From assembly GCF_003790525.1 (NCBI RefSeq), contig NZ_CP033636.1: a stretch of DNA of 64,000 nt; one strand, written 5' to 3'. The notes below the pieces were generated by a model that did not search any database, was not told the origin of the DNA, and worked only from the letters and a program-made list of their open reading frames with translations. This DNA is from Escherichia coli (GTDB lineage Bacteria; Pseudomonadota; Gammaproteobacteria; Enterobacterales; Enterobacteriaceae). Made by a program: the position numbers and the translations under genes. Below, piece after piece: positions 6,011 to 64,000 of this stretch (its first letter is position 1; each line of letters opens with the position of its first letter).

Positions 6011-7600
6011 GGTGACAATGGCAGTGAGTTGACCCACTCACTACCATCGACATTCAAATCCCGGCTTCTCTGGTAGCTATAGTGACAATGGTAATGATGT
6101 GTACCTTACTGGCATTGTCATTGTCCTCCGAGTGTGCGTTCAGCTTTGGGAGGACACCGGAACTTAATGCGGCGAGTCACGGCCATTGTGAATCTCGATT
6201 GGATTGGCGAATACGGCTTCCGGTTGGGCCAGATGTCAATGGTTATGCTTCATCCAGCTCATTACTGTAGTCATTGCCGTTCAGTTGAGCTGATGCTCCT
6301 CTCATTCTATATGGCGACAACGGTAGTGAGCCCAGAAAGTGACTACCGTTGTCATGGCCGTCCAGTAGAGCGGGTCAACCTCTTAACTCACAGGGTGACA
6401 ACGGTATTGAGCCCAGAAAGTCACTACCGTTGTCATGGCCGTCTGGTTAAGCAGATCATCCTCTCAATTCACAGGGTGACAATGGTAGTGAGCCTATTAA
6501 GTCATTACCGTTGTCATTGCCATCCAGAAGAGCGGATGATCCTCTCAATTCATACGGCGACAATGGCAGTGAGCCCAGCAAGTCACTTCCGTTGTCATAG
6601 CCTTCCAGAAGAGCAGATGAGCCTCTTAATTAACAGGGTGACAACGGTAGTGAGCTCATTAAGTCATTACCATTGTCATGGACGTACAGCTGAGCTGCTC
6701 ATCCTCTCAATTCACACACCGACAATGGTAGTGAGCTATTAAAGTCACTACCATTGTCATATACGTCCAGTTAAGTGGACCATCCTCTCAATACACACGG
6801 TGACAACGGTAGTGAGCCATTAGAATCACTACCGTTGTCATTGCTTTTCAGGTGCACTGATAAGGCTCTCAATAGACACGACGACAATGGCAGTGAGCAA
6901 TTAGAGTCACTACCGTTGTCATTGCTTTCAGCTGAGCTGATAAGGTACGTCATTTACACGATGACAATGGCAGTGAGCCAATCGAGTCACTACCGTTGTT
7001 AATGCCGACCAACCGAGGGAAGGGTCCGCTCAAAGAACTGAGTGACAACAGTAGTGAGATCATCCAATCACTACCATTGTCAGCTTAAACCTGTAGGACG
7101 AAGAGGCTTGTCCGATAAAATGACGACAATGGAAATGAGCCTATCCATCACTACCACTGTCATTAAAGTCCAGCGGTTCAACGTTAATCAGTAGCTCCGG
7201 ATGACAATGGTTGTGAGTCAGGCAATTCCCAAGCATTAGGTGACAGCAGCGTAACACCTCTAAGCTCACTTCTGTTGTCAGGGGTTAGGGTATTGAGTCT
7301 CTACCGTCGTCAGTGTTTCTGAGACACCAGTATTGCAGATCACTACAATTGTCACTTAAATATCGACGGGGGAGTAGATGCAAGTGACTGGCTAACCAGT
7401 ACCAGTTTAGATTCAAAACGATCCCATCTTTGTGGATGCGCTTGAGTAAGCTCGTATGACGATATGTCAGAGAAGTGACAACAGGTGTGAGTTGCCGGAC
7501 TCACTCCCGTTGTCATCCCCGGTTGAAGGAAGAGAATCCCCGGGGCTGTATATTTACCAGGTATCCTTACTCAAGGGGTTCGACACTCACTCCCATTGTC
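6011..7600. repeat. downstream array of ~80-bp repeats, each with a palindromic RepA-site-like core
   Basis: about 18 units of GTGACAAYGGTAGTGAG-N7-9-TCACTACCRTTGTCA separated by related ~40-bp spacers; units decay toward 7600; same core as the upstream iterons. Confidence 0.8.
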
Positions 7601-35950: not shown

Positions 35951-36282
35951 TCCTACCATTGCATCCGGAAATTAAACGGGCAGGAACTGCACTGTATGTT
36001 CCGACCAAGCAGCTGCCCGTTACCCTTTTCTTTAGTGTAAAAAGACTGTCTCCGACAACCGGAAGTGACTCATGTCAAATAAATTATAAATCAATGATTT
36101 ATGCAGGCAGGGTGTTTGGCTGATCAGGGCAGAGTGATATAATGACGCTGGTGCTGGAGGCTTTTGCCCCAGCCAGCGGTAACACTGTTTGACTGTGGTA
36201 AAAGCAGAAAGCCCCGAGTAATTTTTCAATTAACCTGTACTGCACCCATTTTGTTGGACGATGAAATGGAATAGCCCCTGAT

Positions 36283-36804
36283 ATGTCAAAGCCAAAATAC
36301 CCTTTTGAAAAGCGCCTTGAAGTCGTGAATCACTACTTCACTACTGATGATGGTTACAGGATCATCTCGGCACGTTTTGGTGTCCCCCGAACCCAGGTCA
36401 GGACATGGGTTGCCCTCTATGAAAAACATGGAGAAAAAGGTTTAATTCCCAAACCTAAAGGTGTTAGTGCTGATCCTGAGTTGCGTATTAAGGTCGTGAA
36501 AGCGGTGATCGAGCAGCACATGTCCCTTAATCAGGCTGCTGCTCACTTTATGCTTGCTGGTAGTGGTTCTGTAGCCAGGTGGCTGAAGGTTTATGAAGAG
36601 CGCGGAGAAGCTGGTTTACGCGCGCTCAAGATTGGCACCAAAAGAAACATTGCAATATCAGTTGATCCAGAAAAAGCGGCATCAGCATTGGAGCTGTCAA
36701 AAGACCGACGCATTGAGGATCTTGAAAGGCAAGTTCGATTTCTTGAAACGCGGCTTGTGTATCTAAAAAAGCTGAAAGCCTTAGCTCATCCCACGAAAAA
36801 GTGA
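36283..36804 (+). CDS. insJ: IS150 transposase OrfA
   Basis: 173-aa ORF MSKPKYPFEKRLEVVNHYFTTDDGYRIISARFGVPRTQVRTWV, recognised as IS150 InsJ. Confidence 0.9.
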   Translation: MSKPKYPFEKRLEVVNHYFTTDDGYRIISARFGVPRTQVRTWVALYEKHGEKGLIPKPKGVSADPELRIKVVKAVIEQHMSLNQAAAHFMLAGSGSVARWLKVYEERGEAGLRALKIGTKRNIAISVDPEKAASALELSKDRRIEDLERQVRFLETRLVYLKKLKALAHPTKK

Positions 36805-37652
36805 AAGTACTCAACGAGCTAAGGCAGTTTTATCCTCTTGATGAGCTTCTCAGGGCTGCGGAGATACCGCGCAGTACGTTTTATTACCATCTAAAGGCTC
36901 TCAGCAAGCCTGACAAGTATGCGGACGTTAAAAAGCGTATTGGTGAGATTTATCATGAGAATAGAGGCCGATACGGATACCGTAGGGTAACGCTGTCTCT
37001 TCATCGAGAAGGGAAACAGATTAACCATAAAGCTGTTCAGCGCCTGATGGGAATCCTCTCACTGAAGGCAGCGATTAAGGTCAAGCGATACCGCTCTTAC
37101 AGAGGAGAGGTAGGGCAAACCGCCCCCAATGTTCTCCAAAGAGATTTCAAGGCTACGCGGCCAAACGAGAAGTGGGTTACCGATGTTACTGAATTTGCAG
37201 TCAATGGGCGCAAGCTGTATTTGTCTCCAGTAATAGATCTCTTCAACAACGAAGTTATTTCTTACAGCCTTTCGGAAAGACCAGTGATGAACATGGTCGA
37301 GAATATGCTCGATCAGGCATTCAAAAAGCTTAATCCTCACGAGCATCCTGTTCTGCACTCTGACCAGGGATGGCAGTATCGTATGAGAAGATATCAAAAT
37401 ATCCTTAAAGAACATGGTATTAAACAAAGCATGTCCAGAAAAGGCAATTGTCTGGATAATGCTGTGGTGGAGTGTTTCTTTGGAACCTTAAAGTCGGAGT
37501 GTTTTTATCTTGATGAGTTCAGTAATATAAGCGAGCTGAAGGATGCTGTTACGGAATATATTGAATACTACAACAGCAGAAGAATTAGCCTGAAATTAAA
37601 AGGTCTGACTCCAATTGAATATCGGAATCAGACCTATATGCCTCGTGTTTAA
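36801..37652 (+). CDS. insK: IS150 transposase OrfB (DDE domain)
   Basis: 283-aa ORF overlapping orfA in the -1 frame, typical IS3-family arrangement. Confidence 0.9.
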
Positions 37653-37681
37653 CTGTCCAACTTTCTGGGGTCAGTACAACC

Positions 37682-44030: not shown

Positions 44031-44085
44031 GGTGATGCTGCCAACTTACTGATTTAGTGTATGATGGTGTTTTTGAGGTGCTCCA

Positions 44086-44361
44086 GTGGCTTCTGTTTCT
44101 ATCAGCTGTCCCTCCTGTTCAGCTACTGACGGGGTGGTGCGTAACGGCAAAAGCACTGCCGGACATCAGCGCTATCTCTGCTCTCACTGCCGTAAAACAT
44201 GGCAACTGCAGTTCACTTACACCGCTTCTCAACCCGGTACGCACCAGAAAATCATTGATATGGCCATGAATGGCGTTGGATGCCGGGCAACCGCCCGCAT
44301 TATGGGCGTTGGCCTCAACACGATTTTCCGCCATTTAAAAAACTCAGGCCGCAGTCGGTAA
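44086..44361 (+). CDS. insA: IS1 InsA
   Basis: 91-aa [43 protein letters not shown]. Confidence 0.95.
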
Positions 44362-44783
44362 CCTCGCGCATACAGCCGGGCAGTGACGTCATCGTCTGCG
44401 CGGAAATGGACGAACAGTGGGGATACGTCGGGGCTAAATCGCGCCAGCGCTGGCTGTTTTACGCGTATGACAGGCTCCGGAAGACGGTTGTTGCGCACGT
44501 ATTCGGTGAACGCACTATGGCGACGCTGGGGCGTCTTATGAGCCTGCTGTCACCCTTTGACGTGGTGATATGGATGACGGATGGCTGGCCGCTGTATGAA
44601 TCCCGCCTGAAGGGAAAGCTGCACGTAATCAGCAAGCGATATACGCAGCGAATTGAGCGGCATAACCTGAATCTGAGGCAGCACCTGGCACGGCTGGGAC
44701 GGAAGTCGCTGTCGTTCTCAAAATCGGTGGAGCTGCATGACAAAGTCATCGGGCATTATCTGAACATAAAACACTATCAATAA
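44280..44783 (+). CDS. insB: IS1 InsB
   Basis: 167-aa frame overlapping insA, consistent with the IS1 frameshift-fusion arrangement. Confidence 0.9.
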
Positions 44784-44964
44784 GTTGGAGTCATTACCGG
44801 CAGCTGCTTTTCAACGCGTGGTGTAACAATCGCGTCCCTAACACAGCGGTGCTGGCTCTTCTACTCCAGCAGTGCTTATCTCATTTCCAGTGCGAAGAAG
44901 TGATCGCAGCCTGGCAGTAACCCTATCAAGCCCCTTCGTATAGCGGAGGGGCAGGAGATATCTC

Positions 44965-58960: not shown

Positions 58961-59044
58961 TGAGGGAATGACCATTGTGGATTATTGCTTTTGATAATGT
59001 GCATTGCTCTATTAAAGTTATACATATATCTAGTGCCACTTTTC

Positions 59045-59200
59045 CAAAAAAAATGACCCTATGGAACTTTGTCCATAGTGACACTTTTATAAAAAGTGAC
59101 CCTATGACGACATTACATAGGGTCACTTTTCAAACATAAGTGACCCTATGTGAGGTATTCATAGGGTCACTTTTCTTTGTTTAGTGATCCTATGTAAGCA
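59045..59200. other. candidate oriT / relaxosome binding region
   Basis: five copies of AAGTGACCCTATG in direct and inverted orientation, forming two perfect 15-bp inverted repeats with 9-10-bp spacers, between divergent transfer operons. Confidence 0.45.
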
Positions 59201-59521: not shown

Positions 59522-60322
59522 ATGTCAGAATCTGATAATTTAACTCGTAGCTTACTCGGTAAACTTTTCCGCACTGAGATTTCGCTTATTCGTAGTTACC
59601 GTGCATTTTTAATGTTATTGCCTGTGCATGGATCTTCTGCATATCAAACTGGGACTCCTCTTCTCCAGCGTCGCCTATTTGGGAAAGGATTTAGTACAGC
59701 CGCTGATTTAGCTTTTGAAGTGGAAACACGTCCAGGTAGTTTTTTGGTTCCGCGTACACTCGGAAAGGAAATTACATGGGAGAGGTTTTTTTCTGCGGTC
59801 TTGGACGGTGATTCCAATGTAATTCGTGAATATGATACAAATGATATTGACTATGGTATTTACGATGCCGGTGAAAAAGTGACTTTTCTGAATGGTACAG
59901 TGGATATCTATAATCCCAAGAAGATTCATGAGTTGCGTTCTAAATGTGTTGATATACAGAATGACTACTTTATGCAGGTGTTCTTTATCTCAATGCTCGC
60001 ACCAGAGTTTGTAAGTGTTTTCTTTGGTTTAAAACCAACTACAGCTGATGCTATTAAAGACATTGGTTATTCATCGTTAAAAACAATTAACGATGTCGTT
60101 CTTTTCCCACGTACAATTGCTTTCTCACAAGGGCATATTGAAGAGAGTGTTTCACTTAAAACGAAAGTTTTTGCCTGGGCTTATGAATTGTCTGCTGACA
60201 TCCGGTTAGGAAAAGTTAGTGATGATTTGATGGAACTATTACGTTATGACACTATGTTCACCAGTCACCGTCAGGATGTGTTCAACACTTTAACAAATAA
60301 AGTTATGTTAAAGGATTATTAA
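59522..60322 (+). CDS. hypothetical protein, possible transfer regulator
   Basis: 266-aa ORF, first gene after the candidate oriT. Confidence 0.4.
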   Translation: MSESDNLTRSLLGKLFRTEISLIRSYRAFLMLLPVHGSSAYQTGTPLLQRRLFGKGFSTAADLAFEVETRPGSFLVPRTLGKEITWERFFSAVLDGDSNVIREYDTNDIDYGIYDAGEKVTFLNGTVDIYNPKKIHELRSKCVDIQNDYFMQVFFISMLAPEFVSVFFGLKPTTADAIKDIGYSSLKTINDVVLFPRTIAFSQGHIEESVSLKTKVFAWAYELSADIRLGKVSDDLMELLRYDTMFTSHRQDVFNTLTNKVMLKDY

Positions 60323-60323
60323 T

Positions 60324-60836
60324 ATGGCAAAGGTCGATCAAACAAAAGCTAATGCTCTATTGCGAGCAGCAAGGACTATGTCGCTTGGGGCAAATAAAAA
60401 TACAATACGAATTTTGTACGGTAATCATGTTGCTGAAAATATCGATTTTGAGCCTGGTGCAAAAACAAAACTCAAAAAAGGTATCCGGGGCTGGAGCAAA
60501 CGCACAGATAACCGCCGAGCTTTTTCTGCTGTTATTGATGTCGCAGTTAACTATTTTGGTTTTGATCCAATAAATCCGGAAGCGAGTTTTCGGCAAATTG
60601 ACTTCAACCGAATAATGAGTGTCCTTCATAATCTGGGATACTTTGTATGCGCACCGGAAGTTAATAAAATAATAGAAATCCTTACTTCTATGAAAGAAAT
60701 TGAAGAACTAGGTGCCTGCGAAAAATGTAAACGCCCATACATTGTGCCAGTGACAAATGATGCTTATTGTCCACGTTGCAGATTATCTTCAACTGCTTCA
60801 GCCATAGAGAGGTATTCTCAAGAAGAATTAGATTAA
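60324..60836 (+). CDS. hypothetical protein with C-terminal zinc-ribbon motif
   Basis: 170-aa ORF; CEKCKRPY...CPRCR cysteine pairs. Confidence 0.4.
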   Translation: MAKVDQTKANALLRAARTMSLGANKNTIRILYGNHVAENIDFEPGAKTKLKKGIRGWSKRTDNRRAFSAVIDVAVNYFGFDPINPEASFRQIDFNRIMSVLHNLGYFVCAPEVNKIIEILTSMKEIEELGACEKCKRPYIVPVTNDAYCPRCRLSSTASAIERYSQEELD

Positions 60837-61429: not shown

Positions 61430-62476
61430 ATGACTCGTATTGCATTAGCGCCTTCAAAGATGGTTTTGCTTATGTCTTTGGTAATTACTGGTGCCCACGC
61501 CAGCCCTGAGCAACCCCTAATAAAAGATACGCCCTTTGTATCAGGCCAGGCTTATAAGAAGGGTTTCTTCTGGTATGACGATCCTGCTAAAAAAAGCGAA
61601 GCTGAAGAAGAAAAGGTTTTGCCACCAACCGGTGCTGCTAGCTCGCCTTCAAAAGAGGAAAAGGTAGATTTAAATTCAAAATGGCTAAAAGAGAATATGC
61701 CTCGACTGTTAACGCAGGCAATGGATAACCCTACCGCAGAAAATCTATCACGTTATTACACGGCGCAAAGGTTAATGCTGGATATCAGTACGCGTTTTTC
61801 TGACAAATCAAAAGATTATTTTCTTAAAAACCCGATGATGTCTGAAAAACGCAGGCAACCAGTGGAAAAGGTGGCACTGGATGCTCACCGCACTGTTGTT
61901 GAAAAAAATCAGCAAACGGTAATGAAAGATATCTTTACTAAGTCAGGTTTATTTTTCTTTTTCCAGAGTACTTGCCAGTTTTGCCACGAAGAGAGCCAAA
62001 TACTTCAATTTATGCAGAACTATTATTCGGTAGATATTCTTCCAATCAGTATGGATGGAAGGCCATTGCATAATGGCCTTTTTCAGGATTTTAACATCCC
62101 CAATGCACAAATTATTGATCAATTTAAAATTCGAGAGGTACCTACAATTTTCCTGGTTTCAAAGGATGGGACATCAGCTCAGCGCATTAGTGAAGGCATG
62201 ATCTCCGCTGATGAATTAAAGAACACTATTATACTTGCCGCGAAGGGCATGAATCTGATCGATGACGCTTCGTTTCAGTCAACTCTAGATATTAAAAGGC
62301 AATATACCATCGGTGATGATGGCGTTATTACCGTTAATAAATCCGAAATGGAATCAGACCCATTCTTACTTCAAAAAATAATGGACCAAAAACTCGAAGG
62401 CTATGACATGCCTACGGCCGATCCGGTCAATTATCTCAATGCTGGCGGCAGTTTTGGAGGCACTTATGCGCAGTAA
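61430..62476 (+). CDS. periplasmic thioredoxin-fold protein, TraF/TrbB-like
   Basis: 348-aa ORF with RBS aaaaggag; signal-peptide-like N-terminus; CxxC motif TCQFCHEE. Confidence 0.45.
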   Translation: MTRIALAPSKMVLLMSLVITGAHASPEQPLIKDTPFVSGQAYKKGFFWYDDPAKKSEAEEEKVLPPTGAASSPSKEEKVDLNSKWLKENMPRLLTQAMDNPTAENLSRYYTAQRLMLDISTRFSDKSKDYFLKNPMMSEKRRQPVEKVALDAHRTVVEKNQQTVMKDIFTKSGLFFFFQSTCQFCHEESQILQFMQNYYSVDILPISMDGRPLHNGLFQDFNIPNAQIIDQFKIREVPTIFLVSKDGTSAQRISEGMISADELKNTIILAAKGMNLIDDASFQSTLDIKRQYTIGDDGVITVNKSEMESDPFLLQKIMDQKLEGYDMPTADPVNYLNAGGSFGGTYAQ

Positions 62477-63881
62477 TGCCGTTTTCAACTTCAAAAAGTT
62501 ACTTTTGTCTCTTTCTGTTTGTGCTGCAATTTTAGCCCCGACTGCAAATGCAGACAACGCAATGCGTAACATTTTCAATGGCATGATGACGTCTACCAGC
62601 CCGGCCACCTTTTCCACAGCAACCCGTACAGGCATAGTTGGCGGGTCAATGTCTTACCGAACAACAAACGTTAATACCAACCTTGTTTCCATGTCGTTTC
62701 CAAAAGCTTCTGTCGGTTGTAATGGTATTGACGTTTTTCTTGGGTCCTTCAGCATGATCAACGGGGACCAGCTTGTGCAGGTGGCCCGTGGTATTGCCCA
62801 GGGTGCGGCTATCTATGCTTTTAACGTTGCTGTTTCAGCTATTTGTGCTGACTGTGCTGCAACGATTAATGACATCCAAAACAAACTGCAAGCGCTAAAT
62901 AAATTTGCGAAAGATTCATGCAATGCAACTTACTCTTTCCTTTCTGAAAACGTGGGTACGCCAAGCCAGTTCGCTAACTCAGTTAGCTCTGGACCAGCCT
63001 CAATTCTGGGATCGATTAATGGTCTCATTCCTGATTTTGGCTCATCGATGACAAAGTCACCTGAAGCTGTCACTTCTCAGGTTAAAGCAAAGGATCCCGA
63101 AGAGTTCGCTGAAAAATTCAGTGGTAACCTCTTCTATATGTCGTTCATGGATATTGATAAGGGAACAATGAACATCGGAGGGGTAACGGAGTTATCCGGT
63201 TATAAATTGGCAGAACAACTTATGTCTCTCGTGGGTACTGTCATTATCAACTGGGATAGCAAAGGCGAAAAAGCGGGAATGGAAGTCCGCCCGTCTACCA
63301 TGACTGTCACGGATTACATCATGGGGCCACCAGCTGGCGGATCAATTAAAATGCTCAAGTGTTCTCCGGCACCAGATCCATCATCCCCACGAAAGGCTCA
63401 GTGCCTTGTCATGTCAGAAGTTAATGACGGTGGTTTTAAGGGATTGAAGGATACCATTTCTGATCTTCTTTTAAACGTACAGAAAAAAATCATCAACGAC
63501 GTTCGTGTTTCAGATGATGAATTACGCATTATCTCCTATATCGGCATCCCGACCATTATCGACTCTTTGCAAACATTCGAAGCACCGGAAGGGTACGCAT
63601 ACATTCAGGACATAAGCACTATTGCTGCGACGAGCCTCGTAATCAACATGTTGCGCCAGGTTGAGGCCAAAATTTCAACCATGAGCATACCGAGTGAGTC
63701 GCTGTCGGGTAAAAGGGATGATCTCAACCGATTAACAGACAATCTCTCAAAACAGGTTAAAGCCGCCTATGAGCTATCGCACAGCCAGGTCGGTACCAGC
63801 TCGGACGTCATTTCAACCTGGGATAACCGTCGCCTGCAACGGAAGGCTTTCACTGAAAGTATTCGTGGCACACGTAACTGA
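62466..63881 (+). CDS. TraH-like secreted pilus-assembly protein
   Basis: ORF 62403..63881; likely start at 62466 (MRSNAVFNFKKLLLSLSVCAAILAPTANA signal peptide), overlapping the upstream stop; stop codon TGA coincides with the first bases of the following IS end. Confidence 0.45.
   Translation: MRSNAVFNFKKLLLSLSVCAAILAPTANADNAMRNIFNGMMTSTSPATFSTATRTGIVGGSMSYRTTNVNTNLVSMSFPKASVGCNGIDVFLGSFSMINGDQLVQVARGIAQGAAIYAFNVAVSAICADCAATINDIQNKLQALNKFAKDSCNATYSFLSENVGTPSQFANSVSSGPASILGSINGLIPDFGSSMTKSPEAVTSQVKAKDPEEFAEKFSGNLFYMSFMDIDKGTMNIGGVTELSGYKLAEQLMSLVGTVIINWDSKGEKAGMEVRPSTMTVTDYIMGPPAGGSIKMLKCSPAPDPSSPRKAQCLVMSEVNDGGFKGLKDTISDLLLNVQKKIINDVRVSDDELRIISYIGIPTIIDSLQTFEAPEGYAYIQDISTIAATSLVINMLRQVEAKISTMSIPSESLSGKRDDLNRLTDNLSKQVKAAYELSHSQVGTSSDVISTWDNRRLQRKAFTESIRGTRN
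62495..62505. repeat. AAAGTWACTTT palindrome copy inside coding sequence
   Basis: exact aaagttacttt in the signal-peptide coding region of the TraH-like gene. Confidence 0.4.
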
Positions 63882-64000
63882 ACCGCCCCGGGAATCCTGG
63901 AGACTAAACTTCCTGAGAAAGAGGTAAACAGGATGACTAAAAATACTCGTTTTTCCCCCGAAGTCCGTCAACGGGCAGTCCGTATGGTTCTGGAAAGTCA
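63879..64000 (+). mobile_element. IS3-family element, IS629-like, left end only
   Basis: terminus tgaaccgccccgggaatcctggagactaaac followed by an orfA start (MTKNTRFSPEVRQRAVRMVLES) that I recognise as IS629-like; truncated by the window edge. Confidence 0.65.
63932..64000 (+). CDS. IS3-family transposase OrfA, partial
   Basis: N-terminal 23 codons MTKNTRFSPEVRQRAVRMVLES with RBS aggtaaacagg. Confidence 0.65.

What the first reader, a model, noticed from the sequence alone, without database searches (positions are those of the whole stretch)
63860..64000. IS3-family element end coinciding with the TraH-like stop codon
The TGA that ends the TraH-like ORF is also the first three bases of the IS629-like terminal repeat (tgaaccgcc...). 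The insertion may have clipped the C-terminus or separated this gene from downstream mating-pair genes. The window ends before the other IS end, so no target duplication can be checked.
Basis: partly seen in the sequence, partly recalled or inferred. Interest (0 to 1): 0.35.

Follow-up and report, generated by a model that had tools for sequence, protein, structure and literature searches.

The report
IS629 inserted just after trhH
A common E. coli jumping gene (IS629) sits directly after the last codon of the conjugation gene trhH on an IncHI2 resistance plasmid; TrhH is unchanged, but the gene is cut off from the next gene of its operon (trhG), which is an ordinary event.

Summary
The TGA at 63879-63881 ends the TraH-like ORF and is also bases 1-3 of an IS629 left terminal repeat.

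- **IS identity:** the last 122 bases of the window match a complete 1310-bp IS629 copy at 122/122. They match two copies annotated as IS629 at 121/122.
- **Setting:** the window is an IncHI2 plasmid backbone. The ORF is trhH (471 aa).
- **No clipping:** uninterrupted IncHI2 plasmids also end trhH with TGA at this position, so the protein is identical to the standard TrhH.
- **Coincidence:** the shared TGA is a 3-base overlap expected in about 2% of insertions.
- **Separation from trhG:** Normally trhG (TraG_N protein, 1316-1317 aa) starts 8 bases after the trhH stop. Here IS629 lies in between.
- **Rarity:** 954 of 956 PLSDB plasmids with this junction have it uninterrupted. No searched collection holds the IS junction, so the insertion is rare and probably recent.
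- **Not testable:** the window ends 122 bases into the IS. The right IS end, the target duplication (predicted AAC or TAAC), the integrity of trhG and conjugation ability cannot be checked.

This is an ordinary IS insertion of low interest.

The parts
61430..62476 (+). trhF-like gene (TraF-like thioredoxin-fold pilus assembly protein, 348 aa). It is the first gene of the putative trhF-trhH-trhG unit and overlaps trhH by 11 nt.
   Evidence: Pfam TraF PF13728 E=3e-51; NCBIfam TIGR02740 TraF-like 328.7 bits, above the 232.25 cut-off; annotated 'thioredoxin family protein' in pSA186_MCR1.
62466..63878 (+). trhH coding sequence (471 codons), full length and unchanged.
   Evidence: 100% identical over window 62400-63881 to IncHI2 plasmids, where it is annotated 'IncHI-type conjugal transfer protein TrhH' WP_001257292.1; Pfam TraH across the whole profile; exact protein look-up.
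63876..63878 (+). AAC, the last trhH codon (Asn471). It is the predicted left copy of the 3-bp target duplication (TAAC, 63875-63878, if 4 bp).
   Evidence: Inference. Three IS629 copies have 3-4 bp duplications immediately outside TGAACC…GGTTCA. The right copy lies outside the window and was not seen.
63879..63881 (+). TGA, the stop codon now used by trhH and also nt 1-3 of the IS629 left inverted repeat. The native sequence has TGA here too.
63879..64000 (+). Left end of IS629 (IS positions 1-122 of 1310), in the same orientation as trhH. The left inverted repeat spans about 63879-63905.
   Evidence: 122/122 to L002 and 121/122 to annotated IS629 copies. IRL and IRR match at 23 of the first 25 positions in the complete copy.
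63933..64000 (+). Start of IS629 orfA (first 22 codons, MTKNTRFSPEVRQRAVRMVLES), cut by the window end.
   Evidence: The translation is identical to the N-terminus of OrfA of the complete copy. orfA is annotated at the same offset (IS nt 55) in the IS629 records.

Best explanation
**Shown.** The window is an IncHI2 conjugative plasmid backbone. An IS629 copy (IS3 family, 1310 bp when complete) lies in the Tra1 transfer region, with its left end starting at 63879, immediately after the last sense codon of trhH. IS629 itself begins with TGA and the native trhH stop was also TGA. TrhH is therefore terminated at the same residue and is identical to the standard protein. The stop codon now used is, strictly, the first three bases of the IS.

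**Inferred.**
- This is a simple copy-out/paste-in insertion into the target AAC (or TAAC).
- The unseen right junction should read …CCCGGGGCGGTTCA-AAC-TGAGGTCTGACATG…, with the original TGA, the GAGG ribosome-binding site and the trhG start codon intact about 1.3 kb further on.
- The functional consequence is not loss of TrhH. It is disruption of the tight trhH-trhG link (8-nt gap, probable translational coupling, one transcription unit).
- trhG would then depend on transcription reading through the co-oriented IS. This probably lowers TrhG supply and with it H-pilus formation and transfer frequency.
- The insertion is rare and probably recent.
For: - **IncHI2 backbone:** window 51-63881 is collinear with pSA186_MCR1 at 98-100% identity, including repHI2, mobI, mobH and traD.
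- **trhH identity and length:**
- **Native junction:** 'aac tga ggtctgac atg' followed by a 1317-aa TraG_N protein.
- **IS identity and boundary:** 122/122 to a 1310-bp copy with TSD ATA; 121/122 to two annotated IS629 copies with TSD CCAG and TAA.
- **Rarity:** 954 of 956 PLSDB plasmids with this junction have it uninterrupted. No record with the IS junction was found in RefSeq complete E. coli, PLSDB, GTDB representatives, JGI metagenomes or IMG/VR.
- **Operon reading:** trhF and trhH overlap by 11 nt and the trhH-trhG gap is 8 nt. No promoter-like or terminator-like sites lie on the + strand between 61430 and 63881. A 12-bp GC-rich hairpin plus T-run follows directly after trhG in the native plasmid.
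- **Read-through is plausible:** the IS shows one weak + strand terminator-like site, no more than in shuffles.
- **From memory, not checked here:** Lawley et al. 2002, J Bacteriol 184:2173, reported that in IncHI1 R27 the five ORFs downstream of oriT (trhR, trhY, trhF, trhH, trhG) are needed for H-pilus production and transfer.
Against: - The window stops 122 nt into the IS, so the right end, the target duplication and trhG were not seen. A simple insertion is assumed, not shown.
- The predicted right junction was not found in GTDB representative genomes or JGI metagenomes. This says nothing either way, because the left junction is absent there too.
- The effect on trhG expression is inference. 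IS3-family elements can also supply outward promoter elements (review PMC9330008), so expression might be unchanged or even raised.
- The consensus scan found no promoter-like site in IS629.
- The operon structure rests on spacing and consensus scans, not on transcript data.
Confidence: 0.7

Rival explanations
1. The IS629 end marks a rearrangement boundary rather than a simple insertion. Candidates are an IS629-mediated adjacent deletion or inversion, recombination between two IS629 copies, or a deletion promoted by IEE (the insertion sequence excision enhancer). In that case trhG and possibly more of Tra1 would be missing or moved, and the plasmid could not transfer itself.
For: The far side of the IS is unseen. 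IS629 is documented to cause deletions next to itself, with or without IEE (PMC9330008; PMC9943667). IS-driven loss of Tra1 has been described for IncHI1 plasmids (PMC12115866). Some IncHI2 plasmids carry further IS629-like copies (2-4 places per record).
Against: The left junction falls exactly between codon 471 and the native stop, with no backbone base lost. No second IS629 end and no trhG start occur anywhere in the 64-kb window. The one other IS in the window whose flanks were read, IS1, is a simple insertion with a 9-bp duplication. The IS150 flanks were not read base by base.
Confidence: 0.2
2. The junction is an assembly artefact. A contig ending in the trhH region was wrongly joined to a repeated IS629 copy, helped by the shared TGA.
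For: IS629 is highly repeated: median 3 and up to 50 places per E. coli genome that carries it. Such repeats are classic sites of misassembly. The junction is unique among all collections searched.
Against: A 3-nt overlap is far too short to drive a mis-join. The break lies exactly at the true IS terminus, as real insertions do. Uniqueness is also expected for a recent insertion.
Confidence: 0.05
3. Only a truncated IS629 remnant is present (left end only), left behind by a later event, with unrelated DNA following.
For: Partial and frameshifted IS3-family copies are common in E. coli plasmids; for example, neighbours of the reference copy are annotated as frameshifted or incomplete.
Against: All 122 visible bases are identical to an intact copy, including the IRL and the orfA start, so no decay is visible.
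Confidence: 0.05

Closest known systems
IS629 (IS3 family; also called IS1203v), the most abundant IS of E. coli O157:H7
   Same: The left terminal repeat and the orfA start are identical (122/122 and 121/122). The TG… terminus is the same. The boundary is the same as in copies annotated IS629 with 3-4 bp target duplications.
   Different: Only the first 122 of 1310 nt are visible. The insertion site, between trhH and trhG of an IncHI2 plasmid, was not found in any collection searched.
Tra1 trhF-trhH-trhG genes of IncHI plasmids (R27 IncHI1, R478 IncHI2); TraF/TraH/TraG of F-type mating-pair formation systems
   Same: Same gene order and sequence as IncHI2 plasmids up to the trhH stop. R478 (NC_005211.1) matches the native junction at 99.7%.
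   Different: In the window the 8-nt trhH-trhG spacer is replaced by IS629 sequence, and trhG is not visible.
IS insertions and IS-mediated rearrangements in IncHI transfer genes (for example IS26 in trhC and rsp, and Tra1 deletion in IncHI1 plasmids; PMC12115866)
   Same: An IS hits the conjugation machinery of an IncHI resistance plasmid.
   Different: Here no coding sequence is interrupted. The IS sits at the gene boundary, so any effect would be polar or regulatory rather than a knockout of the flagged gene.

Membership tests
IS629 (IS3 family insertion sequence) | Left terminal inverted repeat beginning TG, with the IS629 sequence (TGAACCGCCCCGGGAATCCTGGAGACT…) | tested here: met
   122/122 identity to a complete 1310-bp copy and 121/122 to two annotated IS629 copies, starting at the same base.
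IS629 (IS3 family insertion sequence) | Full length of about 1310 bp, ending in the matching right inverted repeat (…CCCGGGGCGGTTCA) | not testable with these tools
   The window ends at IS position 122. No record containing this junction was found for extending it.
IS629 (IS3 family insertion sequence) | 3-4 bp direct target duplication flanking the element | not testable with these tools
   Only the left flank (…GTAAC) is visible. The predicted right junction was not found in GTDB genomes or JGI metagenomes. Reference copies show ATA, CTGG/CCAG and TAA.
IS629 (IS3 family insertion sequence) | orfA and orfB with a programmed -1 frameshift giving the DDE transposase OrfAB | tested here: inconclusive
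   Only the first 22 codons of orfA are in the window. They are identical to OrfA of the complete copy, which is annotated with a programmed frameshift.
TraH/TrhH (F-type mating-pair formation protein; IncHI-type TrhH) | TraH domain over its full length | tested here: met
   Pfam PF06122, E=4.2e-57, 194.5 bits against a cut-off of 25, profile 1-357 of 358. The F-plasmid TraH equivalog NF010279 scores only 107.6 against a cut-off of 625, so this is a TraH-family protein but not the F TraH equivalog.
TraH/TrhH (F-type mating-pair formation protein; IncHI-type TrhH) | Same length and C-terminus as IncHI2 TrhH (471 aa, …RGTRN) | tested here: met
   100% nucleotide identity through the stop codon. 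The exact 471-aa sequence was found in the protein-position index, and it is 471 aa in all 10 places shown.
TraH/TrhH (F-type mating-pair formation protein; IncHI-type TrhH) | Tra1 context: trhF upstream and trhG immediately downstream | tested here: inconclusive
   trhF is present and overlaps trhH. trhG is not in the window, because IS629 follows and the window then ends.
IncHI2 plasmid backbone | repHI2 replicon and collinear IncHI2 core, including the MobH relaxase, MobI and TraD of Tra1 | tested here: met
   Window 51-63881 aligns collinearly at 98-100% with pSA186_MCR1, whose annotation includes repHI2, mobI, mobH and traD.

The most novel reading that the evidence does not exclude
The placement may not be accidental. 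An IS whose terminus is TGA, inserted exactly at a stop codon in the 8-nt gap of a tightly coupled operon, would leave both proteins intact while putting trhG under IS-dependent control. Precise excision (for example promoted by IEE, the insertion sequence excision enhancer) would restore the wild-type junction. That would make a reversible switch for IncHI2 conjugation, lowering plasmid cost or exposure to pilus-specific phages.
Probability: 0.03. Interest if true: 0.45.

Novelty: already known. Interest (0 to 1): 0.1.

Why it matters
IncHI2 plasmids are major carriers of multidrug, mcr-1 and metal resistance. An IS placed between trhH and trhG could reduce or abolish self-transfer of this particular plasmid, which matters for judging its spread. 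Beyond that it is one more strain-specific IS629 insertion. The stop-codon coincidence has no consequence for the protein.

Tried and rejected
- **Clipped C-terminus:** rejected. The native stop is TGA at the same position and the protein is identical.
- **Looking for the source or a sibling record to read past the window end:** all negative.
  - Megablast of 62400-64000 against RefSeq complete E. coli and PLSDB: every top hit stops at 63881.
  - Exact left-junction scans of GTDB genomes, JGI metagenomes and IMG/VR: 0 hits.
  - Predicted right-junction scans with a 0-8 nt gap in GTDB genomes and JGI metagenomes: 0 hits.
  - Exact-protein look-up of TrhH: all 10 places shown have trhG directly downstream and no IS.
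- **A second IS629 end or a relocated trhG start inside the window** (which would indicate an inversion): none.
- **IS629 preference for TGA or for sequence resembling its own end:** the three reference targets show none, and beyond TGA the native target TGAGGTCTGAC does not resemble the IR. Rejected as unsupported.
- **Outward promoter or internal terminator in IS629:** the consensus scan found 0 promoter-like sites and terminator-like sites no more frequent than in shuffles. Uninformative.
- **Literature:** the R27 Tra1 mutagenesis paper (tried as PMC134963) is not held. A text search for the IR sequence found nothing.

Full report
**What is at the coordinates.** The ORF flagged as TraH-like runs from an ATG at 62466 to a TGA at 63879-63881. 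It encodes 471 aa and matches the Pfam TraH domain over the whole profile (PF06122, E=4.2e-57, profile 1-357/358). The gene upstream (61430-62476) is a TraF-like thioredoxin-fold protein (Pfam TraF; NCBIfam TIGR02740 at 328.7 bits against a 232.25 cut-off). It overlaps the TraH-like gene by 11 nt. After the TGA the sequence reads ACCGCCCCGGGAATCCTGGAGACT…, and an ATG at 63933 opens a short reading frame that the window end cuts off.

**What the surroundings are.** Megablast of 62400-64000 against RefSeq complete E. coli genomes and against PLSDB plasmids gives 100% identity to many IncHI2 plasmids over 62400-63881. There the gene is annotated 'IncHI-type conjugal transfer protein TrhH'. A local alignment shows that window 51-63881 is collinear with pSA186_MCR1 (NZ_CP022735.1) at 98-100% identity. 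The shared region includes repHI2, mobI, the MobH relaxase and traD. The window is therefore IncHI2 plasmid backbone, and the flagged gene is trhH of the Tra1 transfer region.

**The IS end.**
- Window 63879-64000 is 122/122 identical to the left end of a complete 1310-bp element on plasmid p120899_146 (L002 2501-3810).
- That element begins TGAACCGCCCCGGG, ends CCCGGGGCGGTTCA, is flanked by the 3-bp duplication ATA, and is annotated as an IS3-family transposase with a programmed frameshift.
- It is 99.5% identical over its full length to elements annotated 'insertion sequence: IS3 family IS629' in Stx-phage records. Those have the same boundaries and target duplications of CCAG and TAA.
- The window differs from those annotated copies at 1 of 122 positions.
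- The 22 visible codons from 63933 are identical to the start of IS629 OrfA.

The identification as the IS629 left end, starting at 63879 and oriented like trhH, is secure. Completeness of the element cannot be checked.

**The stop-codon coincidence.** In uninterrupted plasmids the sequence is …CGT AAC TGA ggtctgac ATG GAT TAC…. The native trhH stop is thus also TGA at the same position, and homology to the backbone runs through 63881. Homology to IS629 starts at 63879. The three bases are shared.

IS629 boundaries are fixed by three independent copies with target duplications. The simplest reading is that the IS inserted between AAC and the native TGA. The TGA now read by the ribosome is then the IS terminus, and the native TGA sits beyond the far end of the IS. 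TGA occupies 2.2% of window positions, and three reference IS629 targets show no TGA at the equivalent place. The overlap is a coincidence of modest improbability with no effect on the protein.

**Was TrhH clipped?** No. The 471-aa product ends …RGTRN exactly as in WP_001257292.1. An exact-sequence look-up finds this very protein listed in 27,557 blocks of the index. In all 10 places shown it is 471 aa and is followed 8 nt later by a TraG_N protein of 1316 or 1317 aa.

**Was trhH separated from downstream genes?** Yes, as far as the window shows.
- Natively trhG begins 8 nt after the trhH stop, with a GAGG ribosome-binding site overlapping that stop.
- trhF and trhH overlap by 11 nt.
- Consensus scans find no promoter-like or terminator-like sites on the + strand within trhF-trhH.
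- A strong terminator-like hairpin (12-bp stem, T-run) follows directly after trhG in the native plasmid.

These features fit one trhF-trhH-trhG transcription unit with probable translational coupling. This is an inference, not a measurement. In the window IS629 takes the place of the spacer, and no trhG start is present anywhere in the 64 kb.

**How unusual the insertion is.** A 300-nt probe across the native trhH-trhG junction hits 956 PLSDB plasmids. Of these, 954 carry the junction uninterrupted at ≥99% identity. One of the two partial hits is simply split by the start of the record; the other was not examined. No record in RefSeq complete E. coli or PLSDB contains the IS junction. Exact-pattern scans of GTDB representative genomes, JGI metagenomes and IMG/VR found none either. 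The insertion is therefore rare and probably recent in one lineage.

**Most likely mechanism.** IS629 is an IS3-family element that moves by copy-out/paste-in through a circular intermediate (PMC9330008; bioRxiv 10.1101/2023.06.07.543989 abstract). It makes 3-4 bp target duplications. I propose a simple insertion at target AAC (or TAAC). That predicts a right junction …GGTTCA-AAC-TGAGGTCTGACATG… with the trhG ribosome-binding site and start codon intact.

The consequence would be loss of trhH-trhG coupling and about 1.3 kb of extra, partly untranslated RNA ahead of trhG. The IS is co-oriented and shows no convincing intrinsic terminator, so read-through is plausible and trhG expression is probably reduced rather than abolished.

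From memory, in IncHI1 R27 the five ORFs downstream of oriT, including trhG, are required for H-pilus production and transfer (Lawley et al. 2002, J Bacteriol 184:2173). That paper is not held in the library. If the recollection is right, reduced TrhG should lower conjugation. None of this can be tested here.

**Rivals.**
- **Rearrangement boundary.** The IS end could mark a deletion or rearrangement, since IS629 and IEE are known to cause adjacent deletions. IS-mediated Tra1 loss occurs in IncHI1 plasmids. I give this about 0.2. Against it, no backbone base is missing at the left junction. The one other IS in the window whose flanks were read, IS1, is a clean insertion.
- **Misassembly or truncated remnant.** Each gets about 0.05.

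**Comparison with the known, and novelty.** Every component is known: IS629, IncHI2 Tra1, and IS hits in plasmid transfer regions. The specific insertion allele appears to be undescribed in the collections searched, but it is not a new kind of thing. Interest is low (0.1). The only mildly novel reading that remains is a reversible IS-based switch of conjugation exploiting the seamless TGA junction. It has no supporting evidence and I put it at about 3%.

Noticed in passing
window 36236-37677: A 1.44-kb insertion relative to pSA186_MCR1, next to a hok toxin locus. In matching IncHI2 plasmids this stretch is annotated as IS150 (IS3 family). Those plasmids also carry IS421 there, which the window lacks.
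   Followed up: partly
window 44031-44798: A 768-bp IS1 copy flanked on both sides by the 9-bp direct duplication GGCAGCTGC, so it is a simple insertion. It is absent at this site in pSA186_MCR1.
   Followed up: yes
window 6259-6999: An 81-bp tandem repeat of about 9.2 copies, each unit with an internal inverted repeat, beside repHI2 (iteron-like). The window has one unit (81 bp) fewer than pSA186_MCR1.
   Followed up: partly
window 59022-59175: A 44-bp tandem repeat of about 3.5 copies with an internal palindrome (GGGTCACTTTTCAAACAAAAGTGACCC). It lies in the intergenic region between the mobI-like gene and the first + strand Tra1 gene, which is a candidate oriT area.
   Followed up: no
window ~13700 and ~48858: Relative to pSA186_MCR1 the window lacks about 1.9 kb holding three small hypothetical genes (L003 14045-15963). 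It also lacks the ISApl1 copy (L004 252-1321).
   Followed up: no
L005, L006, L007, L014 (contigs of 4.9-5.4 Mb): The exact TrhH protein, with the full Tra1 neighbourhood, also lies on chromosome-sized records. This suggests IncHI2 segments integrated into chromosomes, or plasmid and chromosome joined in those assemblies.
   Followed up: no
window 59522-60836: Two ORFs (266 and 170 aa) between the oriT-side intergenic region and trhF have no Pfam or NCBIfam match and are annotated as hypothetical. By position they correspond to the trhR/trhY activator slots of R27 (a recollection, not tested).
   Followed up: no
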